Notes under the pieces: generated by a model
The model's database searches: none
What the model was told of the DNA's origin: nothing
Seen by the model: the letters and a program-made list of their open reading frames with translations, nothing else
Translations under genes and position numbers: made by a program
In this document: one piece after another, positions 1,151 to 61,770 of the stretch
Numbering within the stretch: position 1 is the first letter of the stretch
Layout: every line of letters begins with the position of its first letter
Source: the human T2T-CHM13v2.0 reference genome, Homo sapiens
DNA length: 64,000 nucleotides
NCBI RefSeq assembly: GCF_009914755.1
Contig: NC_060929.1
Strand: one strand, 5' to 3'

Positions 1151-2454
1151 TGGCAGGAATTAATCAGATTGAATATGGGAAGAAACTAGGCCAGGATAGA
1201 ATAGAATAGAACAGATGAGAATGAAATCATAGGATGCTATTGGTGGAAAGGACCTCAGAGATAAGCTGGTACAATAGCTGCCCTCTTCTCTCATTTTACA
1301 GAGAAAAAAACAAAAAACAAAACAAAAAAACAAGAGCCATTGTGGTTCTGTGGAAAGCAAACTAGGTTTCAAAAGACCTGGATTTAAGCCCAACTGGGAC
1401 CCCTGGTTTACTCAGCATCCTCAGACACATCTTTGGCCCGTGTGTCTGAAATTTGTGATTCTAAAATCTCTGGTTGGTCTGTTCTTCTGGTCTTTGGTTT
1501 CAATCAGGGTTTCCTTCCTGGTGATCTGGGCAAGCAGTTTATTGGCTTTTGTGACGGAGTTTTTCTGAGTTTTGGCTAACCTTGTTGATTGCTTCCCTGT
1601 GCTTGGTCTGCAAGCCCATTCCAATTCCCATGCAGTTTTGTGTAAAGATATCTTCATTAAAGACACCTGCTTGGCTTCATTTCGCTTCACAGTGTGTTTC
1701 AATTCATTTTTATGGGCGGAGGCAGCCAGCTGCAATGGATAATCTGGCATCTACTTTAAATGTTGTCTCATGCCCACCTTACAACATTATGACAGTCAAT
1801 TGACATCTTGGGACAGCAGTTTTCCTAAGATTAATGACAATAACAATTATTGTTTTTTTTTCTTATGCTAATTTATTAAACTTTTGTGAGGATCAAATTG
1901 TTAGGGGACATTGACTCTACTTAGTTAACTCACAGCAAAATGGTAAAAACCAGTGGTTACATCTGTTTGGTATTTTTCTACTAGAGTGTTAGTTCCCAGA
2001 GAGTAAGGACTCTGTCTTTGCACAAGAAAACAGGAAAGATGAGTAAAAGGCATCCTAGATTCAGAGTCAGGGGGATTGGCTTCCAGTCCTGGTTTTACCA
2101 CCATTTTACCTTGTGATGCTGGGTAAAGGACTCACTGCCTCCCACACTGACTGGTTTCCTCATCTGTAAAGTGAGGGGCATCGAATAAGATCATCTTTTG
2201 CATTTCCTTTTAACTCTGACAGCTTATGAATTTTGCACTTCTAGTGCTTAGCTCTGTGCCTCGTATATATTAGGGAATTAATAAATGTCTATTAAGCCAA
2301 ATTTAGTTCATTACTATTTATTATTAGTTAAATGTCATTAACTTGTCACATCATTTAGGTTTCTGGAAAGATGACTTTCTTTATTATATTTAGGAAATGT
2401 GGCAGTGATCATTTATATTTAGTGGTTCTGATAATAGGATGGCTGATAACACCA

Positions 2455-2699
2455 GTAGTAGTACTAACGATAAACATCTATAGAGTGCTTATAATGTTCC
2501 AGGCACATACCAGGTATTTTTAAAATGAAATTCTCAACACAACCTTATGAGATAGGTGCAGGCATTAACCTTATTTTACAGATAAGGAAATGCCATGTTA
2601 AATAACTGGACATGTTCACACATGTTCAAAATAACTGACCTTAACACAGTCAGTAGATGGTGGAGCTGGAAGTTGAACCCTGTTCAGTCTGTCTCCAAA
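2455..2699 (-). mobile_element. MIR SINE
   Basis: MIR core in reverse: 'aaccttatgagataggt...ttattttacagataaggaaa...gtagatggtggagctggaagttgaaccc'. Confidence 0.75.
2608..2627. promoter_or_regulatory. Candidate p53-family response element
   Basis: GGACATGTTC ACACATGTTC: two RRRCATGYYY half-sites, zero spacer, one mismatch in total. Confidence 0.5.
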
Positions 2700-2795
2700 T
2701 AGGGTTTCCAGACTCAGCATTTAAAAATAGAGGATCACAAATTAAATATGAATTTCAGATAAACAGTGACTATTTTACTACAAGTATGTCCTATG
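2700..2795. mobile_element. MER53 MITE, half element
   Basis: 'tagggtttccagactcagcatttaaaaatagaggat...aattaaatatgaatttcagataaacag' matches the MER53 left arm. Confidence 0.65.
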
Positions 2796-3670
2796 TGATC
2801 ATACTACCCTCATCTGCCACTCAGGGCAATACATTTTTTTTTTTTTTACCACTGGCTTATGGATTCAGCAGGCAAAATGAGTTCACCTAAAGCAAATTAA
2901 ATGAAAGCAGAACTCTTGTTTCTCACAGGATACTTGGCATTCAATACTATAGGACTGGAAGCCAGGTAGAATTTAGCATTAGGCAGTAAAAAGATATAAT
3001 ATGAAAAGTTTCCATATTAGGAAAATGGCCCCACATGTTATGAAATTTCCTCTTACTCTGAATCTCTTACATCAAATAATTTTGTGTTTTACTTATCTCA
3101 TGAATCTTCTCTCTCCTTCTCAGGGTTTCTGTTTGCTTTAAAAGATGAAACAACTTATAATTTTTTTAAAAAAATTTCAAGTGAAATCTGTAATTACGAA
3201 CGGAGCCAGGATCTCTTGTGAATTGTTTGAGAATGTTGCTTCCCTGTGCTTGAGCTGAAATATCTCATACATCTGTTGCTATGACAATGGGTTCTCGTTA
3301 GTGGGTGAGGTAGACATTTGATCTGTACATTCACAGTGAGGGCTCATGTTCCAGCCTCTTTGTTACGATTCTGAAACTCATGAAATTGGAGAAGTTTCAC
3401 CTTAATCGAAGAAATCGAATTTATAGCAGAAGGGAGTCAAGCCTGGGCCCCTGTCCACTTATTACCACTTTGACTCAGTTTTCTCCACTGTGAAATGGGG
3501 CTGACAACAGTGCCTACTGCATAGGTTTGTGTTAAGAGGATTCATGAAGGATGCAATTAGTGTTATTACTATTAGTTTTATCATTATTATTAAAATAGTC
3601 TATTCCAGGGAACCTTGGTCAAAGCTCATAAAGTTATATTTTTGTTGCCCAGTTAGCCCATCAAAGGGAG

Positions 3671-5176
3671 TGTGTCCGGAATTAGTGGGTTCTTGGTCTC
3701 ACTGACTTCAAGAATGAAGCCGTGGACCCTCATGGTGAGTGTTAACAGCTCTTAAGGTGGCGCGTCTGGAGTTTGTTCCTTCTGATGTTCGGATGTGTTC
3801 GGAGTTTCTTCCTTCTGGTGGGTTCGTAGTCTCGCTGGCTCAGGAGTGAAGCTGCAGACCTTCGCGGTGAGTGTTACGGCTCTTAAGGCAGCGCCTCTGG
3901 AGTTGTTCTTCCTCCCGGTGGGCTCGTGGTCTCGCTGGCTTCAGGAGTGAAGCTGTAGACCTTCGCGGTGAGTGTTATAGCTCATAAAAGCAGTGTGGAC
4001 CCAAAGAGTGAGCAGTAGCAAGATTTATTGCAAAGAGGGAAAGAACAAAGCTTCCACAGTGTGGAAGGGGACCCCAGCGGGTTGCCACTGCTGTCTCGGG
4101 CCTTCTGCTTTTATTCTCTTATCTGGCCCCACCCACATCCTGCTGATTGGTAGAGCCGAGTGGTCTGTTTTGACAGGGCGCTGATTGGTGCATTTACAAT
4201 CCCTGAGCTAGACACAAAGGTTCTCCACTTCCCCACCAGATTAACTAGATACAGAGTGTGGACACAAAGGTTCTCCAAGGCCCCACCAGAGTAGCTAGAT
4301 ACAGAGTGTCGATTGGTGCATTCACAGACCCTGAGCTAGACACAGGGTGCTGATTGATGTATTTACAATCCCTGAGCTAGACATAAAGGTTCTCAAAGGT
4401 CCCACCAAATTAGCTAGATACAGAGTGTCAATTGGTGCATTCACAAACCCTGAGCTAGACACAGGGTGCTGATTGGTGTATTTACAATCCCTGAGCTTGA
4501 CATAAAGGTTCTCCACATCCCCACCAGACTCAGGAGCCCAGCTGGCTTCACCCAGTGGATCCCGCACGGGGGCTGCAGGTGGAGCTGCCTGCCAGTCCCA
4601 CGCCGTGTGCCCGCACTCCTCAGCCCTTGGGTGGTCGATGGGACTGGGCGCCGTGGAGCAGGGGGCGGTGCTCGTTGGGGAGGCTCGGGCCGCACAGGAG
4701 CCCATGGAGTGGGTGGGAAGCTCAGGCATGGCGAGCTGCAGGTCCCGAGCCCTGCTCCGTGGGAAGGCAGCTAAGGCCGGTGAGAAATGGAGTGCAGCGC
4801 TGGTGGGCTGGCACTGCTGGGGGGCCCAGTACACCCTCCACAGCCGCTGGCCTGGGTGCTAAGCCCCTCATTGCCCGGGGCCGGCAGGGCCGGCCGGCTG
4901 CTCCGAGTGCGGGCCTGCCAAGCCCACGCCCACCTGAAACTCCAGCTGGCCCGCAAGCGCCGCGTGCAGCCCCAGTTCCTGCTCACGCCTCTCCCTCCAC
5001 ACCTCCCTGCAAGCTGAGGGAGCCGGCTCTGGCCTTGGCCATCCCAGAAAGGGGCTCCCACAGTGCAGCGGTGGGCTGAAGGGCTCCTCAAGTGCCGCCA
5101 AAGTGGGAGCTCAGGCAGAGGAGGCGCCGAGAGCGAGCGAGGGCTGTGAGGACTGCCAGCACGCTGTCACCTCTCA
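3671..5176 (-). mobile_element. LTR12C solo LTR (ERV9), full length
   Basis: Minus strand begins TGAGAGGTGACAGCGTGCTGGCAG and ends ...TTCCGGACACA; 4-bp TSD GGAG at 3667-3670 and 5177-5180; CpG-rich U3; tandem CCAAT/GATA repeats about 4180-4530. Confidence 0.97.
4106..4530 (-). promoter_or_regulatory. LTR12C U3 enhancer repeats and core promoter, firing leftward
   Basis: Repeated gattgg (CCAAT on minus) and tagata motifs; AATAAAA TATA-like box on minus near 4109-4115; ERV9 LTRs are known NF-Y/GATA-dependent promoters. Confidence 0.7.
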
Positions 5177-26890: not shown

Positions 26891-28739
26891 AGCTAGTAAC
26901 TTTAGTAATAAGGCGATCAATGGGGACTGGTGAGGTAGAAAAAAATCAGCTTTGAGAAGTTTGGAAAAATGGAGTATATCTTAGAAAGGCTCATCAAGTT
27001 GTTATGGACAATCAAAATGACCCCCACAGTCAATGCAAGACACATTAATTTCATGTGCTCACTAATAGTTTGCTTTTATGCACAAATTACAATAAATTTC
27101 TAGTAGAGTTAAATTCTAGGGAAAACGGGGTGGAGGGGGATGAATGAAGACAATATCAAAAGGAAAAAGAAAAGATAAAGTAGTTTTCCACTGGATTCTA
27201 TAAAAAAATACAATGTTACTGAAGATATTTGCTTTTATTTTGTAGTGCTTTGCACTCTACAAAATATGTTTTTCATACTTTATATCAATGTAGTTTACCA
27301 AAACCTTGTGAAGTAAGAAAGAGTTGTCTCCATTTTCTGTAGGAAGAACTCCTGCCCTCAAGGAGAGATTAAAAACATATACCCATTAATTAGTGAACAT
27401 GGACCTCATATCTGGTTTTTGACCCTAACTTCAGGGCTATTTTCACTGTGCTGGGGGGCCACCTCTAGGAAAGAATGGAGGGTTGGAAATCCTCTCAACC
27501 AAGGTCTTGACTTTTTATTTTATTTCATTGTTTCCACAGCTTCTTACATGTGTGTACCACTTTGGATTTCCCAAAACACTTTCTCATATAATATATACTT
27601 GATCCATGCAATAGCCCCAGAAGTAGATAGTGCCCTTTTTATGCATGAATAAACCAAGTGTCAGGGCTTATATGAGGTTTTGTGCAGCAAGACTTTTTAT
27701 TCTGAATCCAGTCTTCTTTCTGGTATGTTACACTGCCTCTCAAAGCCTTTTATTGCAGTTTCCTTTCCCTTCATACTTGTTTTACATAACTCTTTTATAC
27801 AGTTTAGGTTTCAGGACTTAATATTGGCACATGTGTTTTTAAGCAGATAATTTGCTGGGCAATGGCTGAAACCTTAGATACATCTAAGGAAGCTAATCTC
27901 TTATTAAATCAATTATATTCTCATTGTTGGTACTAGGTAGAGTAATATGGTGCATTTGATGGAGCAATAACATGCTTCTTTAGCTGCATTAATTCTATAT
28001 AACTTTTGATTGGGCATTATATTGTTTAGTTAGTAGAAAATTAAAGTAAAACCAAATTCCTAGAAGCCACTCATAGCAAACTGTATTTTTCATCCTGCAT
28101 CAGATTTGAAGATGTACCTAATAACGTGACATAAGTCTGCAAAGTCCCCAGGACACTATCAATTCATTCTACTGCCTCCCAAATTCATAGCCAGCCAAGA
28201 TCATCCCAGTAACTACAGAACATAATCATTGTCCTCTTCATTTATACCTTCAATTTGGATCCAACAAAAATTTCTCTTCCCTCATTTCCCATAAAGCCTA
28301 AATTGCTGAAAAAGATATTCATGAATATCTGTCTAAACTTTGCAGCTTACTAAGTGATTACATGGGAGGTAGCAGGCTGATAAGATATTGTCCCCACTTT
28401 ATGGATTAGCACACTGAGTTTCTGGGAAATTGATCTGGCTTGCTTAAGCTGTTGCAACTCTGAAAAAATCACTAGGGCCTGTGAGGGAGGTCCTCTGTCA
28501 TCAAAGCTTGGGCTCATTCTAGTACTCTATGCTGCTAGATTTCTCTTAAGTGAACTGGAAGCATCTTGGCCTGAATTTGAAAGAAGGCAATCCAAGTTTG
28601 ACTTGGCTAAGTCATAATTCTGAATCACTGCTCCCGTGCAGGTAATTCAGGATAGGCAAATGTAATACAGGATGGCAGCAGAAATCAGACAGAACTAGGT
28701 AGGGGAAGAAAATGGACTCTATAGCGAAGCAAGAAAATA

Positions 28740-28990
28740 ATAATGGCAGTCACTCACTATTTTTTGAGCAGTTACATTATGTTAGGCATGATGTTAAACA
28801 TATATGTGTCTTATCTCATTAGGTCTTTATAATTACTCTATGTGGTTGATATTATAATTAACTCCAATATATAAATAAGATATTTCAGGCTTAGAGAATT
28901 TAAGTAGCTTACCCAAACTTAGATAGCAAGCTGGCAAGCTCTGATCTGTCTGACATCCAAGCCTGTGTTCTTTATCATTCTATTACACTT
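28740..28990 (-). mobile_element. MIR SINE
   Basis: 'ttttgagcagttacattatgttaggcatg...caggcttagagaatttaagtagcttaccc...tctgtctgacatccaagcc'. Confidence 0.7.
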
Positions 28991-29747
28991 TCTGATCAGG
29001 CAACAGGAGACAGAGGTCATTTCTTAGGCTCCCTATGCACTCTTCAAGGTTTCTCTTGGTATCCCATGCTCCTTTTCAAGTTCTCAGTGATGCACAGGAT
29101 GGACAGTGATGTCTTCTTTGACCATCTCTCTGGAGGTCCTTATTCAAAGGCATCAGAAGCAGTCCTGGACCTCAAGATGTGCCAAGACATCACAGGGGGT
29201 TTTAGGGTTCCCCCAACCCCCTGCCATAGTTTAACATCACAGCACTTACCCTTTATTGTTGCTCAGGGCAACTGGTCAGCCAGTTAATAAACACATCAAC
29301 TTACTTTGAATTCTTGAGCACAAAGGGAAAGAAGATATAAACACTGACAGATTTACTATGGTCTAATTTAATAAAAATGTCAACAAATAAATGCACATTT
29401 AGCTGGGAAATAAATATCAACAATGAGGCAAGCTGACAGTGGAGTAGGTTGTAAGAAATTAACATTAAATAGTTTGGGATGACAGTAACTATAAAAACAA
29501 AATTGTACCTTGGAGACATCTTGAAACAATTTAACAAATGTGTGCTTTGAACATGAGAGAAGGCGAGTGAATCAAAACCGTTTTGATATAGGACAAGAGC
29601 CCACAGAGCTGTGGAGAGCAATCACTTGCATTCTGTCCCATACATCTGCAAAATGACATTTAGTGCAAACCAAGAACAGTCATCTGAGGATCATTTTCTC
29701 AAATTAAATGGGCTCCACACACCAAATGGAACTCTTGTTAAAGAGTT

Positions 29748-30445
29748 AAAGAAAAAGAATGGAGACATGTCAAAGAGATTTAGAATCCAACCTGATAGAG
29801 CTCCTAATGTCCAAAGCTGGAAGAATTTGAACCCAAAATAAGTAACATGGTGTTGGATTATAACACAAGTATAAAATAAATATAATGATTCATGCTGATA
29901 TAAATAAAAGATTGAGTTAATGAACAAGAAGTAAATAAGAAGGGGAAAAACTTCCTTATAGAAAAATTTCAAATAATATAGGTATATATTATTATTAAGC
30001 TCTAGGAAGTAAAGCTTAATCTCTCACCTTCTTTGACTATAGGCTGAACTTGGTGACTTGTATTCAAAGAAAAGAGTATGGAAAGGGGAAAAAATAGTAA
30101 CTTTGCTGTGGAGAAATCTGGTAAATACCACCATAACAAAATGATCGAGGTTAACATCACCAGCAAAGAGTTATGTTAATATTTTGTACCCCCTGATGTG
30201 ATATGATGAGAAGGGCACTTCATCTCTGTGGCATTCTTCCCCAGAATCATTACCCTAGTCTAATCGTGAGGAAAGCATCAGACAAACACATACTGAGGGC
30301 CACGTTACAAAAATGTAAAACTGACCAGTATTCCTCAAAATGGCCAAGGTCAAGTAAAACAAGGAAAGATTGAGAAACCATTATAGACCAGAGGAGGCTG
30401 GGGAGAGACATTACTACTAAATGCAATGTGGCATCCTTGGTTCTC
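29748..30445 (+). repeat. Arm 1 (derived copy) of 698-bp inverted duplication; L1MC-derived
   Basis: Reverse complement of 32970-33667 with one mismatch (29781 T vs 33634 G); ORF track shows the same peptide MKFFYKEVFP... at 29691..29972(-) and 33443..33760(+). Confidence 0.98.
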
Positions 30446-30744
30446 ACCAAAGGATGTATAAATTCTCACCAAAAATAAATAAATAAGTAACTTCCCCTTG
30501 ACGAGATCTGCCTGATCCTTTCCCAGCACAGCTAAAGTAGAATGGCTTGCTGAGTTTGGCAGAACTGCATTTATCTCCTAGAACTGCAACTTACTAGCTG
30601 TGTGACCTTGAGACATTACCAAACCTCCCTGAGCCTTGACTGTGGAAAAAAGATAACATGTACTGCAAGGTTATTGCGAGGATCCCAAGCACCTACTACA
30701 ATATTTGCTGGGATGCAGAAGCGCAATAACTCTTAATCCCTTAA

Positions 30745-32170
30745 GATATTTATGTGTCCAACAAGTTTTTATTGAGCACCTACTATGTGCCTGCCATGTA
30801 TTAGGCGTTTGGGTTATATCAATGAATGTTTCCTTCTCTGAATCTTTACATGACAGTGTAGGGAAACAGAAGATTAAGGTGATAAATAGGTAAACTGTAT
30901 AACATGTTAGGTTGTATATCAAAAAAAGGGCAAAGCGAGTGTGAGAAGGGTAAGTAGGATTTTAGAGAGGAAGATGGAGATAGGCATCATTGATAAGATG
31001 ATATTTGAGTAGAATTGCCAGATTTAGCAAACAAAAGTGCTGGATACTAGTTAAATTTCAATTTTAGATAAATCACAATTTTTAGTATACATAGTATGTT
31101 CAAGATTGCATGTCCATGTCACTATTTATCTGAAATTCAAATTTCAATGGGTGTCCTTTATTTTTATCTAGTAACCCTACAATTTGAGCCAAGACTAGAA
31201 GTTCTCTGTGTGTATATCTGCAGGAAAAGAGTTATAGGCAGGGAGAATAGCCCACATAAAAGCCCTAGGGGAAGCTTGAGGAACATCGAGGAGGATAACA
31301 TGGATGGAGCAGAGTGAGCCAGGGAGGGAGGGACTAGAGGACAGAGAGGCACCCAAGATCCCAAGAGCAGATCGCATGGGGTCTTGTAAGCACTTCTGCT
31401 TCTACTCTGAGTGAAATGGGGAGCCATTACAGGGTTTTGCGCAAAGAAGAGGCATAATCTAACATATCCTAGCTGCTGGCTGAGAGTTGACTCTAGGAGG
31501 GGCAAATCAGGGACATCAGTAAGGAGTTATCACAGTCATTCAGGCAACAGGTGATGGTGGCTCAGACCAGACGAGGGTGGCAGCCATGGCAGTTAGAAGT
31601 GGTTAGATTCTAGGTATTTAGAAGGAAGAACCAACAAGATTTCCTATGAGTTGTGAGAGAATGAGAAAAGTCAAAGATAACTGCAAAATTTGTGGCTCAA
31701 ACAACTGGAAAAATCGAGTTGCCATGATGGGAAAGCTGTGAGTGGAACAGGAATTTGGGTGGGGGCTGGGGCAATGAGGAAGATTGGTAGTTCCATTTTG
31801 GATATGTATGGTTTGAGAATTCTGATAGACATCCAAGTAGAGATGTCCAGTAAACATTTGGAATGTGAGTCTGGAGTTCAGGAGAGACATCTGGGATGAA
31901 GAAACAAATTCGGGAACATTTTAGCATCTAGATGCCAATGAGACTGGATATCACCAAGGAAGTGACTGTAGAAAGATAAGAGAAACAGGTTTAAGCCCTA
32001 GTTTAAATGTTGGTGAGAGGAGAAAGGAACAGCAAATGAGACTGGGGACTGACCAGTGAAATAGAAGAAAAACCAAGACACCATATTGTCCTGAAGGCCA
32101 ATGAAGAAAATGTATTAAGGAGGAATGAGTTATCAACTGTGTCAAATGCTAACAATAGGTCAAATAAGAT
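30745..32170 (-). mobile_element. L2 LINE, long fragment interrupted by MER53
   Basis: 'tttattgagcacctactatgtgcc' 3' end in reverse, 'tgagtgaaatggggagccatt', 'gacatccaagtagagatgtccag', 'tcaactgtgtcaaatgct'. Confidence 0.85.
31010..31180. mobile_element. MER53 palindromic MITE
   Basis: 'tagaattgccagatttagcaaa...tttatctgaaattcaaattt...tatctagtaacccta'; 8-bp TSD tatttgag/aatttgag. Confidence 0.85.
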
Positions 32171-32720
32171 ATCTATTTATATGTCTGATTTCTAATGGAC
32201 AATGTTTTTGTTTGACCAGTGAAGAGGGGTCAATGGCAAAAATAGTATTGCCATTGTGCCATCTTGGAAAGTCATGTCTCATTAAATTATAATATGATTC
32301 TCCTGGCACTCCCCCTTTCCCTTCTTTCTTTCCCCCCTTGAATACTAGGCTATTGGGAAACACGTTGAGATTCCATATTGTGAAAAATTCTATAAAATAA
32401 AGAAGAAAATAGGACCATTTGCTATGGTCTTTTAGCACAAGTACACATTGATAAGCTTTTTCTTTTTCTTGTGGAAGGACTGTGGGTCAGCCCACCAGAG
32501 AGCATATGAAGCTTCTGCTTCCTCTCATGAGCTGACTGGCTGGGTAGGTGCTTTCATGGATTCATGGCCAGCCTGTTGTAACATTGCTGGTTCCCCACCC
32601 AGGCCCTCACTCTCCAGACAGAGACAAGGTCCTGATGAGTTACCTGGTAGTCTATTCAGAAATCTCCCAGCACCCAGGAGACTGAATTCTCTTGCTCTGA
32701 GCCTCCTCAATAGCTATTAC

Positions 32721-32723
<3 letters not shown>

Positions 32724-32759
<36 letters not shown>
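32724..32759. repeat. (AT)18 microsatellite
   Basis: Direct reading. Confidence 0.95.
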
Positions 32760-32762
<3 letters not shown>

Positions 32763-33667
32763 AAATTTTGGAATAATTTTAGGTTTACAGAAAATTTGCA
32801 AATATAACAGAAGGAGTTTCTGTATATGCCTCACCCAGTTACCCCTAGTGTTAGAATCTCACCTTGCCATGGTAAATTTGTCAACATCATTATATACCTT
32901 TAACTAAACTCAGGCCTTTATTCAGATTTTACCAGATTTCTCCACTACTGTTCTTTTTCTGGCCCAGGAGAGAACCAAGGATGCCACATTGCATTTAGTA
33001 GTAATGTCTCTCCCCAGCCTCCTCTGGTCTATAATGGTTTCTCAATCTTTCCTTGTTTTACTTGACCTTGGCCATTTTGAGGAATACTGGTCAGTTTTAC
33101 ATTTTTGTAACGTGGCCCTCAGTATGTGTTTGTCTGATGCTTTCCTCACGATTAGACTAGGGTAATGATTCTGGGGAAGAATGCCACAGAGATGAAGTGC
33201 CCTTCTCATCATATCACATCAGGGGGTACAAAATATTAACATAACTCTTTGCTGGTGATGTTAACCTCGATCATTTTGTTATGGTGGTATTTACCAGATT
33301 TCTCCACAGCAAAGTTACTATTTTTTCCCCTTTCCATACTCTTTTCTTTGAATACAAGTCACCAAGTTCAGCCTATAGTCAAAGAAGGTGAGAGATTAAG
33401 CTTTACTTCCTAGAGCTTAATAATAATATATACCTATATTATTTGAAATTTTTCTATAAGGAAGTTTTTCCCCTTCTTATTTACTTCTTGTTCATTAACT
33501 CAATCTTTTATTTATATCAGCATGAATCATTATATTTATTTTATACTTGTGTTATAATCCAACACCATGTTACTTATTTTGGGTTCAAATTCTTCCAGCT
33601 TTGGACATTAGGAGCTCTATCAGGTTGGATTCTGAATCTCTTTGACATGTCTCCATTCTTTTTCTTT
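32760..33667 (-). mobile_element. L1MC-type LINE-1 3' fragment; 32970-33667 is arm 2 (donor) of the inverted duplication
   Basis: 'ttttggaataattttaggtttacagaaaatttgcaa' 3' terminus and 'ccacattgcatttagt'; L1MC-like sequence resumes near 34610-34780. Confidence 0.85.
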
Positions 33668-33994
33668 TGTTTTAAAAGTAGAAGTACTTTATGTTTATGG
33701 ATGAACATTTTTTACATGAAATACTGGCACCCATGCTATGTATGGGGGTTTGTTTCCTAAATAAATATGAGTTTTCAATTGAATTCAGCTAGGTTTAGAC
33801 ACAGCCTGAGCTTTAATGCTAGAAAGAACTACTGAGGGAAGCTTCTGGAATCTAATTCTTTGAAGATTTCTCAAAAACAAAAAAGTTTCATACTACCAAA
33901 AGTTGCACATAGGGTACTGGTGGTGGGGCCAGAGATAATGTTCTATGATTTCTGAAATTTTTTCTTCTCATTTTATTTTATGCTATTTCCCCCC

Positions 33995-34595
33995 TTTTAA
34001 TTGATACATAATAATTGTATATATTCATGGGACACATATGCTATTTTTGATACATATAAGATATAATGATCAAATCTGAGTATTTAGCTTACCCATCACC
34101 TCAAACATTTATCATGTATTTGTGTTGGAAACATTTCAAATCTTTTCTTCCAGCTATTTGGAAATAAACTTTAATTCATTATTAACTGTAGTAGTCACCC
34201 TACTGTGCTATTCAACACTAGAACTTACTACTGCTTTCTAACTGGTTGCTTGTGTCCATTAGCCAACCTCTCTTCACCACCCCCCTCCACTTCCTAGACT
34301 CTGGCAGCCACTACTTCAGTCCCTACTTCCATGAAATCAATTTGTTATCTCCCACATATGAGTGAGACCATGTGATATTTGTCTTTCTTTGCCCAGCCCA
34401 TCTCACTCAACATATTGACCTCCATCCAGTTCCATCATGCTCCTGCAAACAACAGGGCTCCTTTCTTATGGCTAAACAGTATTCCACTGTGCATATACAA
34501 GACAATCTTCAACCGTTCATCCGTCCATGGACATCTAGGCCAACTCCATATCCTGGCCACTGTGAAAAGTGATATAATAAACATGGGGGTGCAGG
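33995..34595 (-). mobile_element. L1MA-type LINE-1 3' fragment nested in the L1MC
   Basis: 'ttttaattgatacataataattgtatatattcatggg', 'cccatcacctcaaacatttatcat', 'ctcccacatatgagtgag'. Confidence 0.85.
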
Positions 34596-35519
34596 GTGCA
34601 GGCAGTTTTTGTTTTTAGCATATCTTTAAGACACTGCAAGGTGCTCCAGGCTCATCATGTGTTTTCCCTGGAATCATGGGATCAGCCATTTCTCCATGGG
34701 GCCGTGCTTCTTTTTTACTGGAAAATCATAGAAAAAGCAAGCAAGATCTGGGCAATGGGTACCCAAAGGCATATTACTGGGTCAAAAATACTCTCCCAGG
34801 AGGGCTCATGAACCACCTGCACCACTTGTGTATTACCCAGGGGTTGCCAGCAGGGGTCACCAAGTGACTGGGTTGGGGGTGTGATTGTATTGACAAATTG
34901 GGGTTAAGGACACCACCACAATCTTCTGGTTGGAGCCCACCTTACAAGCAGGCAGAAGATACTAGTATGGTTTGAGAGGCAACAGTAAGTCCCCTCTTTC
35001 CTCACCATTCCAAAATATCTTCCTTTCCCTTCATAAGATTCCTGAAATTCCTGCATTGGAGTTTTAGCCTTTTAGTCTTTTAAAAATAGCTTCCGATTAA
35101 AATAAAACCAGACTTTGATTAAAAATTATCTTTGATTCCCGTTTAAAATGTAGATAAATCACTTGCCTCCAGTGGCCTCAAATTTAATCAGAGTTGGATC
35201 ATAGTATTCATCTAGAGTTTAGGCTTTGTCCTGCAAGTCGTCAGGGAGCCCTGAATATTTTTGGCATGATCTGCAATGCATTTTTAGGGTGATAATGTTG
35301 TGGTTCATATGTATATGTGTGTGTGTGTGGTGTGTATGTACGTAGGTGTGTAAATATGTATATGTATATGTGCCTGACACCTAGTGAGAGCTATAGAGTA
35401 TTTGCTATAATTAATGTCATTAGTAGTAGTGGTAACAGAACATTCTAACCATAGACGGCTCTCTCCAAACTTCCTGCTGTTAATTTGTGACACAGTGTAA
35501 GAACAAGTGTGTATATATA

Positions 35520-35720
35520 CGCACATACTTCCATTGACTTCTCACACCCTATGAGGTTAGTACTATTTTTATTTCATTTTACAGGTGGAAAAATTGGGGC
35601 ACAGCAGGGAAATGTAACTTGTCCAAGGTCACACAGCTACTAAATGGAAAAGACAAGATTTAAAGCCAGGCAGTCTGGCTCCAGGTTTCTGGTTCTTAAC
35701 TATGCTCTGTGCTACTCATT
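35520..35720 (-). mobile_element. MIR SINE
   Basis: 'ccctatgaggttagtactatt...aacttgtccaaggtcacacagctactaaatgg...aggcagtctggctcc'. Confidence 0.8.
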
Positions 35721-37013
35721 TGAATGTCTGTTCTCCTCTGCCTTCTTCAAGAGAATGCTCCCAAAATGCCACCTAGCCTCATCCCTGGCTTTCATGTCTC
35801 CAGAATTTCATATTTCAAGATCCTCCCTTACCAAGATTATTTTTCACAGGCTATCCCCAGCACTGCCCTATCCCCATGAGCCCTTAGGGTCTTTCTCATT
35901 TTCTTTATCTTCTCTTTCCCCACTTATCACTGCCTTAGTGGTAAATGAGTTGATATGATTAAATACCTTTCTTTTGGGGCAGGGGATGGGAGGGGATATT
36001 TTGTTTTCAAAATAAGGCTACTAGTATAACCCAAAGGAATACATTCTAATGACAAAACAGATGTCAATAAAAGACAAGTGATAATAATAATAATCAGCAA
36101 CTTATCTTGGCTTAATGTAAACACTCAATAAATGCAGCAGTTAGCATTTATTGAGTGACTGCTTTGTGCCTGATATTGTACTAAGTACTTCACGTAGATA
36201 CTTTCTTTTGATTCACACAGTAATCCTAGGAGTTTAGCACCATTATTATCTCTCTCTACAGAGAGAACTTGAGAAGTTTCCCCAAGGTCACACAGCATGG
36301 AAAAGCTGGAATATGATTGACAATGGTGAGTCTGTAAGAGGCTTCACCCTTGAACTTGATAAAGTACTCACTGTAGTATACCTCAAATGATACCACACCC
36401 ACAGACCCAATTTCATCTAGTTCGGTGCTGTGCAGAAGCTGTTTGTAGAGAAGGAACACTTAGAAATTGTATTTCCTATCTATTATGGATCAGTAGTTCT
36501 ACAAAATACATTAACAATGAATTATATGATCACATTCTTGGATGTTATGCCCACGTCAACTTGTTATCCAAGTCTCTCAATGGTTTCTCCTAGTTTTAAA
36601 CTTACCACAGTAGGTTGGTAACCAGCAGGTCATGGACTGGCATCAATCTGTGAATCATTCTCTGAATGGCACTGGTCTAATAGTATCCTTTTCACAAATG
36701 TGATTCACTAAATGTATGTCTAGATATAACTGAATTTTTATTTCTTTGTAAAATTTGTGTTAGACTCTTTGTTCCAACTGTTGGTTATTAAACCCATAGA
36801 CATTAGACATTAGGTAGACCTGGCACCAGACAAACCTGGATTTAAATCTAATCCTGCCTGTTCTACCTGCATGGCTTTGAGTAGCTTAACCTCTCTTAGA
36901 CTGTTTTATTGTCAATAAAATGAGGATAATAATATTTACCCAGATGGATTATTGTGAGAATCCATTGAGACAGGGATGACTGGTACATGGGAGACACTTA
37001 ATAGATTTTGTTA

Positions 37014-46889: not shown

Positions 46890-48610
46890 TAAAAAAATGT
46901 AGCTTTATTGAGGTGTAATTTATGTACAGTAAAATTTAACAATTTTCAATTAATTTGAGGAGTTTCAACAAATCTATATGGTAGTGTAACTACCAACCCA
47001 ATAAAAGTGAAAAATATTTTCTTTGCCATCAAACGTTCTTTCCTCCCCTTTGGAGTTAATTTCCTCTACCAAACCTCTTGCCCTGGCAACCACAGACTTC
47101 TATCACTTTAGTTTTCTATCATTTTAATTTTGCCTCTTCTAGGATTTTATGTAAATGGAATCATAAAGCATGTTGTCTTCTACTTCTGATCTGTTTTACT
47201 TAGCATAGTGCTTTTCCTCCATTTGGTTGATCCTTTTTATCTCTGAGTAGTGTTATATGGAAATATATCTACTTGCTTCTCCAACAGTTGAGGGACACTG
47301 ACATGGTTTCCAATTGTTAGCCATTGTGAAGAAAATTGCTGTGAATATATACATACAAATTTTTGTGTGAACGTATTTTTTTCATTTCTGTTGGGTAAAT
47401 TTGGAGTAGGATTGCTGGGTCATGTGGTAAGTGTGTGTTTCATTTTATTTTTTAAAAATGGAGCCAGGCACAATGGCTCATGCCTGTAATTCCAGCACAT
47501 TGAGGGCCTGAGGTGGGAGGATCCGTTGAGCTCAGGAGTTCAAGACTGGCCTGAGAAACACAGTGAGACCTCATCTCTAAAAAAAAAAAAAAAAAAAGCC
47601 AGGCATATTTGCACACACCTGTAGTCCAAGCTACTTGGGTGGCTGAGGATTGCTTGAGTCCAGGAGGTCAGGGCTGAGCCATGATTGCACCACTGCACTC
47701 CAGCCTAGGTAACAGAGGAGACTCAGACTCAAATAAAAATAAAAGTAAAAATAAAAATAAAAGCCAAATAGTCAAACTGTGTTCCAGTTGCTGTACCATT
47801 TTTGCATTTCTACTAGCAATAGATGAGTATTCCAGTAGTTCCATATCCTTACTAATGCTTGGTAGGATTAGTCTTTTGAATTATAGTAATTCTAGAGGGT
47901 ATGGAGTTGTATCTCATTGTGATTTTAATTTGCATTTCCCTAATGACCAATGATGTTGAGCATGCTTTCATGGGCTTATTTGCCATCCATATATCTTCTT
48001 TGATGAGTGTCTGTTCAGATTTTTTGTGGAAACTGGATAATTTTTTTATTTTATTGTTGAGTTGTAAGAACATTATTGTATCTCTTGGAAAGAGATTCTT
48101 CATCAAATGTATGTTTTCTAACTATTTTTTCCTGGTCTATGGCTTATCTTTTCATTTTCTTTACAGTGCCTTTTAAAGAATAAAATTTATAATTTTGATG
48201 ATGTCAAATTTGTCAATGTTTTTATATCTGATGTCTGTGATTTTTGCTACCTTTTTTTCTTAAAAAAAAATCTTTGCCTAACCCAAGGCTGCATATATTT
48301 TCTCCTATGTTTTCTTTTAGAAAAGTTATAAGTTTAGCTTTTACCTTAGGCCTATGATCCATTTCAAGTTAAAAATTTTGCATGTGGCATGAGCTAAGAT
48401 TTAACTTTAATTATTATGCATATCCGATAATTCCAGCACCATTTGTTTGAAAGTTTATCTCTTGTCATTGAATTCCTTGTCAATTTTATAGAAAATTAAT
48501 TGATCTTAAATGTGTGGGTCTATTGGTCAGTTGTTTTTTCTATCTATAGCTATATGTCTATATGCCAGTACTACGTTGTCTAAATTATTATAGCTTTATG
48601 GTAAGGTAAT
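46890..48610 (-). mobile_element. L1MB/ME-type fragment interrupted by AluJ
   Basis: 'agctttattgaggtgtaatttatgtacagtaaaatt', 'ccctaatgaccaatgatgttgagcatg', 'tctttgcctaacccaagg'; ORF 47852..48106 has ORF2-like MQIKITMRY. Confidence 0.85.
47462..47762 (+). mobile_element. AluJ SINE
   Basis: Two-arm Alu with long central A run and (AATAAA)-like tail. Confidence 0.9.
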
Positions 48611-50321
48611 ACAATTTTTCCAACAAAGAAAAGGCATTTTTCCCAGGTGACACAGCAAGGTAGTGTCCAATCCATGGCTAGAATTGACATGTTCGTATTT
48701 CCAGCCTGGCTGTCTTCTTCCTTACCCTACATTTCTTCATGGTACCATTTATTCCTGGGCTCCCACCCTCTCTCAGTTCCTCTACAGCAGGGGAAAGTGA
48801 AAATGTTGTGACATGCAATCACATACTGTTTGATTTAATATAAAACAGAATGTTTTTTTTCTCCACCCTCTTCCTCACCACTCTCAATATCCAAGTAAAC
48901 TTGATACTCTAGGAAAATGAGCCCCATCTATCCTGTGTGTACCTCTGGGGCAAGGACCTCAACTGAATAGAATGGACTGGTCCAAATCAGAAATATTCAT
49001 TGCTCTGTGAGGACATAAGCCAACAGTACCATAAGGTAGGCTGGCCAGTGGACTCTCTGGAGTCACACACAGGGAGTTTTCCCTTGGCTTCCCTCCTTAA
49101 TCAGAACTTCTCTATGTGGGAACAGATGGCTGGTACAATATGGAAAAAACAGTCACATGAACCTGCTTCTGTTTTGCTAAACCTCATTTCTGTAGTCAGC
49201 AAACAGGAAATTCCAGACATGTGACAAATCAACTGACGTGGAATTCCCAACTAGGTGTTCCCTCTCATGCGTCTTCTCCACTGTGGAGTCACTGCTCCTG
49301 CCACTAGCATTCGCAGAGACATTGGGGCCATTGCAGTATCTGGAATATTTAGTATGTGGATGGCAGGAATCCAGCCCCAGAGAGAGGATCCAAAACCAGC
49401 CTTCATGGAAATGTGGGCTTCAGCTGAGAAATAAGTGCCATTTGAAATAGATATCTTAGCTGCTTTTAATCAGATTACACTATCATTGAAGTTTATCTGT
49501 AAGTTTTTGCTTTTATATAGTCTTGACATCTTTTTTTAAAAAAACATTAAAATATTGATTGGGAATTTTGTACTCTAATAGAGAGTGCCTGCATGTGTGT
49601 GCTGTGTGTGTGGACTCATGCAGGCATGTGCATTTGGTCTAGTGAATGGAGTATCAACAATTTTAACCTCATTTTACTGAAAAGATTTAAAAATTCATAA
49701 TTAGCAAACTCAAAAGGAGGAAACAAGGGGAGGTCATATATGATTTAGAAATATATTGTGCATGTTATAAGCTAAGGAATTTGATCACCCTTTTGTAACT
49801 GAGACAACCCTTTTCTCCTCCCTGCTCTCCAAATGAAATAAAAAAAAGATCAATTTGGTATGGAAGCTTTATGGAGTCTCATACATTGACAATCTATTGT
49901 ATTTAACTGCTGAATATAGTAAAATCTCAGTTAACTAAAGGACTCTAAGAGGAACATTCTAGTGATTTTACTTCTCTGATTAATTGAGGGATTAAATAGA
50001 ATTTCCCTCTTCAGCTTTTGTTGAAAAAACTTCCAAAATGTATGAGTATGCTTCCCTGTCTTCGTAACTCTAGCCAACACAATTGTATTTTTCTCATGAC
50101 TCAGGATCTGAAGATTTAGGGGTTATTTGGAAAATGCATCTCATTATTTAAGGCTATAACAGTGGTGGTGGAATTGTGGGAGTTTTACTGAGCGAGCAAT
50201 GACCCTCACCCTCAGTTTCTTACTGTTAAATGAGGGAATAGGTTTTTCAACTGTGTTGTGTAGAGCTGTAGCCCCCTATCTATCACAAACAACTTGAGAT
50301 GTTTTAGAAGTGTGTTTCCAG

Positions 50322-57274: not shown

Positions 57275-58358
57275 TTTCTTTTCTTTTTTCTTTTCTTTTC
57301 TTTTTAATTATACTTTAAGTTCTAGGGTACATGTGCACAATGTGCAGGTTTGTTACATATGTATACATGTGCCATGTTGGTGTGCTGCACCCATTAACTT
57401 GTCATTTACAGTAGGTATATCTCCTAATGCTATCCCTCCTCCCTCCCCCCTCCCCCCACCCTACGACAGGCCCTGGTGTGTGATGTTCCCCTTCCTGTGT
57501 CCAAGTGTTCTCATTGTTCAATTCTCACCTATGAGTGAGAATATGCGGTGTTTGGTTTTCTGTCCTTGTGATAGTTTGCTGAGAATGATGGTTTCCAGCT
57601 TCATCCATGTCCTTACAAAGGACATGAACTCATCCTTTTTTATGTTTGCATAGTATTCCATGGTGTATATATGCCACATTTTCTTAATCCAGTCTATCAT
57701 TGATGGACATTTGGGTTGGTTCCAAGTCTTTGCTATTGTGAATAGTGCTGCAATGAACATACGTGTGCATGTGTCTTTATAGCAGCATGATTTATAATCC
57801 TTTGGGTATATACCCAGTAATGGGATGGCTGGGTCAAATGGTATTTCTAGTTCTAGATCCTTGAGGAATCGCCACACTGTCTTCCACAATGGTTAAACTA
57901 GTTTACAGTCCCACCAACAGTGTAAAAGTGTTCCTATTTCTCCACATCCTCTCCAGCACCTGTTGTTTCCTGACTTTTTGATGATTGCCATTCTAACTGG
58001 TGTGAGATGATATCTCATTGTGGTTTTGATTTGCATTTCTCTGATGGCCAGTGATGATGAGCATTTTTTCATGTTGTCTGTTGGCTGCATAAATGTCTTC
58101 TTTTGAGAAGTGTCTGTTCATATCCTTCACCCACTTTTTGATGGGTTTTTTTTTTTTCTTGTAAATTTGTTTGAGTTCTTTGTAGATTCTGGATATTAGC
58201 CCTTTGTCAGATGAGTGGATTGCAAATATTTTCTCCCATTGTGTAGGTTGCCTGTTCCCTCTGATGGTAGTTTCTTTTGCTGTGCAGAAGCTCTTTAGTT
58301 TAATTAGATCCCATTTGTCAATTTTGGTTTTTGTTGCCCTTGCTTTTGGTGTTTTAGA
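57275..58358 (-). mobile_element. L1PA (about PA3-PA5) 5'-truncated LINE-1: 3'UTR plus ORF2 C-terminus
   Basis: 'ttatactttaagttctagggtacatgtgcacaa' terminus; ORFs 57518..57889 and 57893..58090 encode the ORF2p C-terminus ([28 protein letters not shown]). Confidence 0.97.
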
Positions 58359-59892: not shown

Positions 59893-60364
59893 ATCCTTCA
59901 CCCACTTTTTGATGGAGTTGTTTGTTTTTTTCTTGTAAATTTGTTGAAGTTCTTTGTAGATTCTGGATATTAGCCCTTTGTCATATGGATAGATTGCAAA
60001 CATTTTCTCCCATTCTGTAGGTTGCCTGTTCATTATGATGATAGTTTCTTTTGCTGTGCAGAAGCTCTTTAGTTAAATTAGATCCCATTTGTCAATTTTG
60101 GCTTTTGTTGCAATTGTTTTTGGTATTTTAGTCAGGAAGTCTTTGCTCATGCGTATGTCCTGAATGGTATTGCCTAGGTTTTCTTCTGGGGTTTTTATGG
60201 TTTTAGTTCTAATGTTTAAGTCTTTAATCCATCTTGAGTTAATTTTGTATAAGATGTAAGGAAGGGGTCCAGTTTCAGTTTTCTGCATATGGCTAGCCGG
60301 TTTTCCCAATACCATTTATTAAATAGGGAATCCTCCTCCCCCCCCCCCCCAAAAAAAAAAGAAA
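59893..60364 (-). mobile_element. Internal L1PA ORF2 fragment (antisense) with + strand C13/A-rich tail
   Basis: ORF 60073..60315 ([11 protein letters not shown]...[10 protein letters not shown]); 11-bp TSD aagaaatttgt at 59882-59892 and 60365-60375. Confidence 0.9.
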
Positions 60365-61002: not shown

Positions 61003-61736
61003 TCAGAGCAGATGCTGTTGGCACCAAAACGTATCTACTCTGCTCTCAACATTCCTGTGCATGCCAGCCTCACAGTTTCCAACTTCAAGTACCTGCTTCT
61101 TCCTGAGGGATTCCTCTGGCAATGGGAATCTACTGAAAGTGTCAGAGAGTTACAACCCTTTCCTCAAGTAATTCCCAACCAATGACTGTGATGAATTTGT
61201 AGAAAAATAGTTCTGCAACTTTGCCTCTTAGCTGACATAACTAATGGGCATATTCTGCACTGCATCACATGGCTGTCAGTGGCATTGAACACCAGTTATC
61301 CACAGTGCAAACCTGCTGGTTAATTCACCTTGAATTGGCTTTGTTCCCTTCCTCTCTCACTTCTCCAGTCCTTACTAGTGCTTCCTGGGACCACCACCTA
61401 AATGAACTGCTGACTCTTGAATCTTTGGCTCAGAGACTGCCTCTGTTTCAGCTTTTAAAAATAGCAATAATTTCTTTTGATACTCCTTCCATCAGGAGAT
61501 GGGGTTTAGGTCCTCACCCCTTGAATGTGGGTGAACTTCAGCCTCAGAGCATGGTGGAAGTAATGCTATGTGACTTTCAAGGCTGTGTCATAGATGACCG
61601 TGCATCTGCTGTCTTGTCCACTGAGGTTCTTGCTCTTGGAGCCGTGAGCTACCATATAAGGAGTCCAGCTGTTTTGGGGCTGCCACGTGGGATATGGGTA
61701 TGCCATGCTGAGAGGCCACATGGAAAGCTCTGAAGC

Positions 61737-61770
<34 letters not shown>

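What the first reader, a model, noticed from the sequence alone, without database searches (positions are those of the whole stretch)
29748..33667. Near-perfect 698-bp inverted duplication of an ancient L1MC fragment
Seen: 29748-30445 is the reverse complement of 32970-33667 at 697/698 bases, with a 2524-bp spacer. The sequence is an old, decayed L1MC, so independent insertions cannot give this identity. Arm 2 is collinear with L1MC on its left (32760-32969) and L1MC resumes near 34610, whereas arm 1 has no such context. Inference: arm 2 is the donor and arm 1 is a DNA-level copy placed about 2.5 kb away in reverse orientation, either very recent or homogenised by arm-to-arm gene conversion.
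Basis: partly seen in the sequence, partly recalled or inferred. Interest (0 to 1): 0.82.

Follow-up and report, generated by a model that had tools for sequence, protein, structure and literature searches.

The report
Young inverted copy of old LINE-1 fragment
A 698-base piece of an ancient LINE-1 remnant was recently copied, flipped and pasted 2.5 kb away in gene-poor human DNA, most likely by a DNA-repair or replication slip; this is a known, ordinary kind of structural mutation.

Summary
29748-30445 is the reverse complement of 32970-33667 at 697/698 bases, with a 2524-bp spacer, razor-sharp edges and unrelated flanks. The genome holds only these two near-identical copies; the other 38 listed family copies are 67-77% identical.

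Arm 2 is the donor. A profile built from four other copies runs unbroken from arm 2 into the LINE-1 3' tail. It resumes upstream at 34608, beyond a 940-bp old nested insertion. Arm 1 lies in unique DNA.

Both junctions of arm 1, but neither donor edge, carry short junction-spanning direct repeats (8 and 11 nt) and junction-abutting hairpins. These resemble footprints of microhomology-primed, synthesis-dependent end joining.

Best reading: a resected break end, or a stalled nascent strand, folded back onto its own strand 2.5 kb away. It copied 698 nt and was rejoined. One mismatch gives about 1.4 Myr (95% 0.04-8 Myr) without gene conversion.

This is a known class: an inverted dispersed duplication, or templated insertion. 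No gene or annotated element is touched. Presence in other humans and apes could not be tested.

The parts
29748..30445 (+). Arm 1: the derived, inverted copy (LINE-1 3'-UTR sense strand lies on +).
   Evidence: 697/698 match to the reverse complement of arm 2. The profile hit covers positions 616-1282 at 29749-30442 with no family homology on either side. The flanks are unique in the genome. It carries the derived T at 29781, where the family profile has c as in arm 2.
32970..33667 (-). Arm 2: the donor, in its native place inside an ancient LINE-1 3' region on the - strand.
   Evidence: The profile hit at positions 618-1322 runs 33667->32933 straight across the inner arm edge. HSPs to 7 of 8 other copies cross 32970.
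30446..32969 (.). Spacer of 2524 bp (the fold-back loop in the proposed model). It mixes unique DNA and old repeats. Its right end (32758-32969) is the LINE-1 3' tail, still in ancestral orientation relative to arm 2.
29730..29752 (+). Junction 1 footprints. A perfect 7-bp stem with a 4-nt loop (29730-29747) ends exactly at the junction. An 8-nt tandem direct repeat (29737-29744 and 29745-29752) spans the junction.
   Evidence: a stem of 7 or more abutting a position occurs at 0.33% of window positions; a junction-spanning direct repeat of 8 or more occurs at 2.2% of positions. DNA fold -5.0 kcal/mol, z -3.66, 2 of 200 shuffles as good.
30432..30473 (+). Junction 2 footprints. A hairpin has 10 Watson-Crick pairs and one bulge; the last 4 nt of arm 1 form the loop and the right arm starts exactly at 30446 (30432-30456). 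An 11-nt direct repeat (30441-30451 and 30463-30473) spans the junction.
   Evidence: hairpin score 9 is reached at 0.11% of positions; a spanning direct repeat of 11 or more at 0.83%.: -7.6 kcal/mol, z -4.72, 0 of 200 shuffles as good.
32758..32969 (-). 3' tail of the same ancient LINE-1, continuing from arm 2. It ends in a (TA)n tract at about 32724-32759.
   Evidence: Profile positions 1666-1792 at 32884->32758, E 3.7e-26; sequence read.
33668..34607 (-). Old nested insertion that interrupts the LINE-1 next to arm 2's outer edge. It holds another LINE-1 ORF2-C-terminal/3'-end fragment (33995-34595), an A-rich tail, and a roughly 290-bp low-copy piece (33668-33954).
   Evidence: query positions 206-806 match many copies at 71-77%; the 290-bp piece has two other genomic copies (75-77%) that lack the LINE-1 part; the family profile is absent from 33668-34607.
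34608..34764 (-). Upstream continuation of the donor LINE-1 beyond the nested insertion. About 6 profile positions (618-623) are represented on both sides, consistent with an A-rich target-site duplication.
   Evidence: nhmmer profile positions 462-623, E 3.7e-16.

Best explanation
A single, evolutionarily recent DNA-level copy-and-paste event produced a locally dispersed inverted duplication, also called a templated insertion. Arm 2 (32970-33667) is an internal piece of an ancient LINE-1 3' UTR in its original place. Arm 1 (29748-30445) is a new copy placed in inverted orientation into unique DNA 2.5 kb away.

Proposed path (inferred). A double-strand break or collapsed fork occurred at about 29744-30449. 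The 3' single-stranded tail of the right-hand end first made a short local templated patch; this explains the 11-nt direct repeat at junction 2. The tail then folded back onto its own strand and primed at a 5-nt inverted microhomology (TTCTC) at the inner end of arm 2. It copied about 698 nt outward and let go in the A-rich tract at the edge of the nested LINE-1 insertion. The new T-rich end paired with AAAGA on the left-hand end, added 3 nt, and was ligated; this explains the 8-nt tandem repeat at junction 1. The spacer is the fold-back loop.

A leading-strand switch onto the lagging-strand template of the same fork (FoSTeS/MMBIR) has the same geometry and cannot be told apart from sequence alone.

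Consequence. The two 698-bp arms at 99.86% identity now bracket a 2.5-kb segment that non-allelic homologous recombination could invert. If the locus is transcribed, the arms would form a long RNA hairpin. No function is implied.
For: Shown:
- Identity is 697/698 with sharp edges and unrelated flanks.
- Only two such copies exist in the assembly; the other 38 listed matches are 67-77% identical.
- Arm 2 is native on both sides. The profile is continuous into the 3' tail. It resumes at 34608 after a 940-bp nested insertion whose own copies elsewhere are only 71-77% identical, so the insertion is old.
- Arm 1 sits in unique sequence.
- The one difference is a derived T in arm 1, where arm 2 agrees with the family profile.
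- Both novel junctions carry a junction-spanning direct repeat (8 nt and 11 nt; null frequencies 2.2% and 0.83%) and a junction-abutting hairpin (null 0.33% and 0.11%; fold z -3.66 and -4.72). The two donor edges carry none (fold z 0.65 and -1.71).
- The far end of the donor lies 3222 nt from junction 2.

From papers:
- Human fold-back inverted duplications have spacers of 766-70,466 bp (median 3,428). They show 2-8 bp of inverted microhomology in 13 of 21 sequenced junctions and insertions in 5 (PMC3907307, passages read).
- In yeast, fold-back templated inversions at breaks use polymerase-delta synthesis at one end and end joining at the other (PMC11724301, abstract).
- Synthesis-dependent microhomology-mediated end joining uses snap-back and loop-out structures near breaks (PMC5728401, PMC2943611, PMC9303309; search listing and abstract starts only).
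- Inverted and dispersed duplications are recognised germline classes attributed to MMBIR (PMC9510932, passages).

Age: one mismatch gives 1.43 Myr (95% 0.036-8.0 Myr) at 0.5e-9 per site per year.
Against: - The pre-insertion allele was not available, so the step-by-step path is a reconstruction.
- By the strict definition, microhomology at the two junctions is 0-1 nt (reading). The 5-nt microhomologies appear only if the 8-nt patches are read as templated insertions.
- The junction tests were defined after I had looked at the junctions. The null distributions come from one 64-kb window that includes low-complexity DNA, so the percentages are indicative only.
- The local patch at junction 2 needs a complementary template 22 nt away. 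That template would be gone from a resected end, so a sister chromatid or an earlier step must be assumed.
- The donor's outer edge lies about 6 nt from the boundary of the nested insertion. I explain this by the A-rich tract, but it could be coincidence or point to something I have not seen.
- Recency assumes no gene conversion between the arms.
Confidence: 0.75

Rival explanations
1. An older inverted duplication, possibly shared with other apes or older, whose arms have been kept nearly identical by repeated arm-to-arm gene conversion (concerted evolution).
For: Inverted repeats a few kb apart do undergo conversion and NAHR; recurrence for IRs of 654 bp to 24.2 kb is described in PMC6748972 (passages). 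The single mismatch lies 34 nt from the outer edge, where conversion is least efficient. The divergence-based upper bound already reaches about 8 Myr.
Against: Identity falls from 100% to random within one base at both edges, and no lower-identity homology lies beyond them. An old duplicate homogenised by conversion tracts usually keeps more diverged margins. The short junction repeats and hairpins are still perfect, which fits a young event. One marginal mismatch has no statistical weight (68/698, about 0.1, by chance).
Confidence: 0.12
2. Arm 1 is an assembly artefact: a mis-joined or duplicated read segment in T2T-CHM13.
For: It could not be excluded here, because no reads or other assemblies were available.
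Against: The arms differ at one base. Both arm 1 junctions lie in unique sequence. The whole structure spans 3.9 kb, far shorter than the long reads used for such assemblies (general knowledge, not tested). The junctions carry biologically typical repair footprints.
Confidence: 0.03
3. A by-product of an inversion formed by staggered breaks: the 2.5-kb segment was inverted and the staggered ends were filled in, leaving inverted duplications at the two breakpoints.
For: The layout (arm, segment, inverted arm) is what that model produces.
Against: In that model each arm keeps its ancestral neighbour on one side only, one outer and one inner. Here arm 2 is ancestral on both sides: the 3' tail lies inside, and the nested insertion followed by the resumed LINE-1 lies outside. 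Arm 1 is ancestral on neither side.
Confidence: 0.03
4. A retrotransposition-related origin: two independent LINE-1 insertions, or a twin-priming 5' inversion of one insertion.
For: The sequence is LINE-1 derived. Most small human inversions are attributed to twin priming (abstract of bioRxiv 10.1101/2021.12.20.472354, seen in the listing).
Against: The family is long dead: other copies are 67-77% identical while the arms are 99.86% identical. Both arms are the same internal 3'-UTR segment, not adjacent parts of one element. Arm 1 has no poly(A) and no target-site duplication.
Confidence: 0.01

Closest known systems
Inverted dispersed duplication / local templated insertion (copy-and-paste structural variant attributed to template switching, FoSTeS/MMBIR)
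   Same: An extra copy of a nearby segment is inserted in inverted orientation. The donor stays in place and there are two novel junctions without long homology. Such events are catalogued in germline genomes (the NA19240 benchmark lists 18 inverted and 15 dispersed duplications; PMC9510932) and in cancers (PMC7025897).
   Different: Nothing essential differs. This instance is fixed in a reference-grade haploid assembly and both junction footprints are legible. Its population status is unknown.
Fold-back inverted duplications with a disomic spacer (Hermetz et al. 2014, PMC3907307)
   Same: The arms are inverted and separated by a single-copy spacer of a few kb: 2524 bp here, 766-70,466 bp (median 3,428) there. 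Short inverted microhomology or small insertions occur at the spacer/duplication junction. A resected end is proposed to pair with itself.
   Different: Those events duplicate megabases, delete the chromosome end and pass through a dicentric chromosome. Here synthesis stopped after 698 nt and the end was rejoined to the other side of the break, so the chromosome is otherwise unchanged.
Fold-back templated inversions and synthesis-dependent microhomology-mediated end joining at double-strand breaks (yeast: PMC11724301; Drosophila: PMC2943611, PMC5728401)
   Same: Snap-back hairpins and loop-out direct repeats lie next to the junction. [quoted passage not shown]
   Different: The reported inserts are mostly about 5-34 bp and copied from within tens of bases. 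Here the main insert is 698 bp, copied from 2.5 kb away, with short patches of the usual size at both junctions.
Inverted repeats that mediate recurrent inversion polymorphisms by NAHR (PMC6748972, PMC3961182)
   Same: IR length and identity (698 bp, 99.86%) lie within the range of IRs known to drive recurrent inversions (654 bp to 24.2 kb, over 90% identical).
   Different: No inversion is documented here. No chr5 entry near this position appeared in the main text of PMC3961182 or in the 12 of 18 supplementary files of PMC6748972 that were searched. In this haplotype the spacer is in the ancestral orientation.

Membership tests
Inverted dispersed duplication / templated insertion | A second copy of a nearby segment, in inverted orientation, at near-identity | tested here: met
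   697/698 reverse-complement match, 2524 bp apart.
Inverted dispersed duplication / templated insertion | The donor is retained in its ancestral context and the copy is flanked by two novel junctions | tested here: met
   Arm 2 is collinear with the family profile on both sides, allowing for an old nested insertion. Arm 1 is collinear on neither side.
Inverted dispersed duplication / templated insertion | Microhomology or short templated insertions at the junctions | tested here: inconclusive
   Strict junction microhomology is 0-1 nt. However, 8-nt and 11-nt junction-spanning direct repeats and two junction-abutting hairpins are present, and none at the donor edges. Interpreting them needs the empty allele.
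Inverted dispersed duplication / templated insertion | An ancestral allele lacking the copy | not testable with these tools
   No other human or primate assemblies were available. One exact-match scan of prokaryote genome contigs for a stray copy of the left flank found 0.
Fold-back inverted duplication (Hermetz type) | A single-copy spacer of roughly 0.8-70 kb between the inverted arms | tested here: met
   The spacer is 2524 bp, against 766-70,466 bp in PMC3907307.
Fold-back inverted duplication (Hermetz type) | A terminal deletion or dicentric intermediate with a large duplicated arm | tested here: not met
   The arms are only 698 bp, and unique sequence continues normally on both sides. 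The event works like a fold-back but is not a member of that clinical class.
NAHR-mediated recurrent inversion locus | Inverted repeats of about 650 bp or more at over 90% identity flanking the segment | tested here: met
   698 bp at 99.86%; range taken from PMC6748972.
NAHR-mediated recurrent inversion locus | Both orientations of the segment observed among haplotypes | not testable with these tools
   Only one haplotype is held. It has the ancestral orientation, with the LINE-1 tail next to arm 2.
Inversion by staggered breaks with duplicated breakpoints | Each arm keeps its ancestral neighbour on one side only (one outer, one inner) | tested here: not met
   Arm 2 is ancestral on both sides and arm 1 on neither.
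LINE-1 twin-priming inversion | The two inverted pieces are different, adjoining parts of one insertion, bounded by poly(A) and a target-site duplication, and as old as the insertion | tested here: not met
   The arms are the same segment at 99.86%, while family copies are 67-77% identical. Arm 1 has no poly(A) or target-site duplication.
   There were 1487 first-look candidates; 40 were scored and all matched. One longer copy (L030) has a Pfam L1 ORF1 dsRBD-like domain hit (PF17490, E 1e-9) about 4 kb upstream on the same strand. The other copy tested (L029) gave no Pfam hit, nor did the window flanks. The subfamily name cannot be tested without a repeat library; my recognition of the L1M 3'-end motif is from memory.
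Concerted evolution of an old inverted repeat | Lower-identity homology extending beyond a homogenised core, or diverged margins | tested here: not met
   Flank alignments are at shuffle level, and the transition is sharp within one base at both edges.

The most novel reading that the evidence does not exclude
This is a human-lineage-specific, possibly still polymorphic, kilobase-range fold-back templated insertion preserved with both repair footprints intact. If so, the snap-back/loop-out end-joining chemistry known from 5-34-bp inserts also generates inserts of about 700 bp copied from kilobases away in the human germline. The same event would have created a new invertible 2.5-kb cassette that may already flip recurrently among people.
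Probability: 0.25. Interest if true: 0.45.

Novelty: new member of a known kind. Interest (0 to 1): 0.3.

Why it matters
It matters modestly. The locus is a clean, datable example of how a short inverted duplication arises, with both junctions readable at base level. It links large clinical fold-back duplications and tiny templated inserts at breaks to an intermediate size. It also predicts a testable consequence: a 2.5-kb segment bracketed by 698-bp arms at 99.86% identity, within the range known to drive recurrent inversions. Short-read mapping would handle it poorly. No gene or annotated regulatory element is touched. By the hub's annotation, the nearest genes are a pseudogene whose end lies about 118 kb before arm 1 and SGCD about 112 kb after arm 2, and the RefSeq enhancers lie at 2056-3257 and 48426-49625. 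No phenotypic effect is expected.

Tried and rejected
- Pfam scan of 3 kb on each outer side of the arms, three frames each, stops read as X: 0 families for 6 of 6 translations. The first attempt without X was rejected because of stop codons.
- Rfam over 28000-36000: 0 matches at gathering thresholds.
- Extended homology beyond the arms, as expected for conversion of a larger old repeat: not found.
- A further duplicated piece that would indicate a more complex rearrangement: none. This pair is the only inverted repeat in the window, and the direct-repeat families found are repeats unrelated to the arms.
- Exact-match scan of prokaryote genome contigs with a 43-nt unique left-flank stretch, hoping for a stray human or primate contaminant with the empty site: 0 hits.
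- Known inversion at this locus: none in the main text of PMC3961182, whose chr5 entries lie at about 178.8 and 180.5 Mb. In PMC6748972, only 12 of the 18 supplementary files were searched; the sole chr5 hit lies at about 147.5 Mb.
- For PMC11794170, a genome-wide map of repeat pairs of 200 bp or more at 80% identity or more, I saw only the outline and the list of supplementary files. Its full maps were not read and may list this pair.
- Supplements of the bioRxiv inversion surveys are closed and may bear on whether an inversion is catalogued here.
- 3' transduction as the origin of the 290-bp piece 33668-33954: not supported. Its two other copies lack the LINE-1 part.
- Staggered-break inversion, twin priming and a long-TIR DNA transposon: considered and rejected (see the membership tests).
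Full report
**1. The observation**

The repeat finder on 28000-36000 returns one inverted pair and no direct repeats. A base-by-base comparison shows that 29748-30445 equals the reverse complement of 32970-33667 at 697 of 698 positions. The single mismatch is 29781 (T) against 33634 (C on the - strand). Matching collapses to random within one base at both ends. The spacer is 2524 bp.

Local alignment of 1 kb of outer flanks scores 20.0, against shuffles of 17.8 +/- 2.0. The inner flanks score 24.5, against 16.8 +/- 2.0 with a maximum of 23.0. No convincing homology continues beyond the arms. This pair is the only inverted repeat found in the whole 64-kb window.

**2. What the sequence is**

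I searched the window's own assembly with arm 1. The result was 1487 first-look candidates, of which 40 were scored. Those 40 are the two arms at about 100% and 38 other copies at 67-77% identity. So the arms belong to an old, abundant dispersed repeat, and only these two copies are young.

The continuation of arm 2 on the - strand reads like the canonical 3' end of old L1M-type LINE-1 elements; this recognition is from my memory. As a test, I scanned 8.5 kb upstream of two longer copies against Pfam, with stops read as X. One copy (L030) has an L1 ORF1 dsRBD-like domain (PF17490, E 1e-9) about 4 kb upstream on the same strand. The other copy (L029) gave no hit. The same scan of the window's own flanks also gave nothing. 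The subfamily label 'L1MC' could not be tested without a repeat library.

**3. Which arm is the original**

BLAST of 28001-36000 against eight other copies shows the following:
- Alignments to arm 2 run across its inner edge into 32754-32771 or beyond 32970 in 7 of 8 copies. The eighth has two abutting alignments split by an insertion in that copy.
- Alignments to arm 1 stop at 30429-30441 in 8 of 8 copies.
- At the outer edge, no alignment passes 33668 or starts before 29750.

Four of the eight copies share a further 500-700 bp of upstream homology with each other. A profile built from those four copies finds these hits:
- Arm 2 at profile positions 618-1322 (33667->32933).
- The 3' tail at positions 1666-1792 (32884->32758).
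- The upstream continuation at positions 462-623 (34764->34608, E 3.7e-16).

So the donor LINE-1 is interrupted by 940 bp (33668-34607) right next to arm 2. That insert contains another LINE-1 ORF2-C-terminal/3'-end fragment (33995-34595). Its many relatives are 71-77% identical, so it is old. It also contains an A-rich tail and a roughly 290-bp piece with two other genomic copies at 75-77%. Profile positions 618-623 are represented on both sides of the insert, which fits an A-rich target-site duplication.

Arm 2 is therefore ancestral on both sides. Arm 1 lies in sequence that is unique in the genome on the left. On the right it is unique for about 560 bp. The one mismatch is a derived T in arm 1; arm 2 has the profile's c.

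**4. Models excluded by the anatomy**

- An inversion made by staggered breaks leaves each arm with an ancestral neighbour on one side only. Here arm 2 has both and arm 1 has neither.
- Twin priming or independent retrotransposition cannot give 99.86% identity in a family whose copies are 67-77% alike. Arm 1 also has no poly(A) or target-site duplication.
- Conversion of a larger old repeat predicts diverged margins or residual flank homology. Neither is seen.

**5. The junctions**

By the strict definition, the two arm 1 junctions have 0-1 nt of microhomology (reading). Both nevertheless carry local structure that the donor edges lack.

Junction 1 (29747|29748):
- The last 18 nt of the left flank form a perfect 7-bp stem with a 4-nt loop that ends exactly at the junction. 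A stem of 7 or more abutting a position is found at 0.33% of window positions.
- An 8-nt unit (GTTAAAGA) is tandemly repeated across the junction. The null frequency is 2.2%.

Junction 2 (30445|30446):
- The 11 nt right of the junction are the reverse complement, with one bulge, of arm positions 30432-30441. The last four arm bases form the loop. The null frequency is 0.11%.
- An 11-nt word (TTCTCACCAAA) spanning the junction recurs 22 nt downstream. The null frequency is 0.83%.

DNA folding gives z -3.66 (2 of 200 shuffles as good) for junction 1 and z -4.72 (0 of 200) for junction 2. The two donor edges give z 0.65 (146 of 200) and z -1.71 (13 of 200).

Caveat: I defined these tests after seeing the junctions, and the nulls come from this window only.

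**6. Proposed mechanism (inference)**

The footprints fit synthesis-dependent, microhomology-primed end joining combined with a fold-back.

1. A break or collapsed fork occurs between about 29744 and 30449.
2. The right end is resected.
3. Its 3' tail primes on AAA 22 nt away and copies 8 nt. This creates the 11-nt repeat and a new 3' end that is complementary to TTCTC.
4. That end folds back onto its own strand at TTCTC, the inner end of arm 2. This is a 5-nt inverted microhomology.
5. Synthesis runs outward to 33667. The whole template lies within 3222 nt of the break, a plausible resection length.
6. The strand dissociates in the A-rich tract about 6 nt from the nested-insertion boundary.
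7. Its T-rich end pairs with AAAGA on the left end, and 3 nt are added. The ends are ligated, leaving the 8-nt tandem repeat.

This path reproduces the observed sequence at both junctions. It explains the inverted orientation, the short distance and the side on which the donor lies.

A leading-strand switch to the lagging-strand template of one fork (FoSTeS/MMBIR) has identical geometry and cannot be separated from the fold-back by sequence.

Weak points:
- The local patch needs a template that resection would remove.
- The empty allele is unknown.

I put about 0.75 on the general class (a single recent template-switch or fold-back copy with arm 2 as donor). I put about 0.4 on the detailed path.

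**7. Age**

One difference in 698 bp gives 1.43 Myr at 0.5e-9 per site per year, with a Poisson 95% interval of 0.036-8.0 Myr. With a flat prior, about 6% of the probability lies beyond 6.5 Myr. The arm has only 3 CpG sites. All of this assumes no gene conversion between the arms.

**8. Comparison with what is known**

- Inverted and dispersed duplications are standard classes of germline complex variants and are attributed to MMBIR. The NA19240 benchmark lists 18 and 15 of them (PMC9510932, passages).
- Local copy-and-paste events with inverted junctions are common in cancers (PMC7025897, passages).
- Large human inverted duplications form by fold-back. Their spacers are 766-70,466 bp (median 3,428). 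They show 2-8 bp of inverted microhomology in 13 of 21 sequenced junctions and insertions in 5 (PMC3907307, passages). The present spacer and the inferred 5-nt microhomology fit. However, this event has no terminal deletion and only a 698-bp arm, so it works like a fold-back without belonging to that class.
- Yeast breaks give fold-back templated inversions of about 5-34 bp through polymerase-delta synthesis at one end and end joining at the other (PMC11724301, abstract).
- Snap-back and loop-out priming defines SD-MMEJ (PMC2943611, PMC5728401, PMC9303309; listing and abstract starts only).
- Inverted repeats of 654 bp to 24.2 kb at over 90% identity drive recurrent human inversions (PMC6748972, passages), so this pair qualifies as a substrate.
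- I found no catalogued inversion here. The main text of PMC3961182 and 12 of the 18 supplementary files of PMC6748972 gave none.

**9. Function and verdict**

No RNA family matches 28000-36000. By the hub's annotation, no gene or RefSeq element overlaps the structure. It is a neutral-looking structural mutation.

The mechanism can be narrowed to a fold-back or template-switch copy with legible repair footprints. It is a new instance of a known kind.

Still open is whether arm 1 is human-specific, polymorphic, or older and homogenised, and whether the spacer inverts. That needs other haplotypes and ape genomes, which these tools do not hold.

Noticed in passing
window 33668-33954 (- strand); L027 1501-1758; L028 1501-1728: A roughly 290-bp piece lies between the nested LINE-1 fragment's A-rich tail and arm 2. 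It has just two other copies in the assembly (chr4 and chr5, 75-77% identical), and neither is accompanied by the LINE-1 part. It is a low-copy old repeat of unidentified family. A 3'-transduction origin was not supported.
   Followed up: partly
window 4173-4547: A short array of 87-119-nt direct repeats at 79-92% identity (families D5 and D6) lies inside one of NCBI's masked stretches. It looks like the internal tandem repeats of an LTR-type element; the family was not identified.
   Followed up: no
window 58147-58357 and 59921-60131: Two 211-nt direct copies at 91% identity lie 1774 bp apart (family D4), within or next to masked repeats. They could be a pair of LTR-like ends or two related repeat fragments.
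   Followed up: no
window 32724-32759: A (TA)n microsatellite sits exactly at the 3' end of the donor LINE-1, where its poly(A) tail would have been. Similar TA runs occur at 61723-61763.
   Followed up: no
window 31250-32160 and 30560-30830 (+ strand): By eye and from memory, the spacer contains L2-like and MIR-like ancient repeat sequence with strong G over C skew. Part of it (31005-31190) matches many short dispersed copies at 70-88%. Families were not verified.
   Followed up: partly
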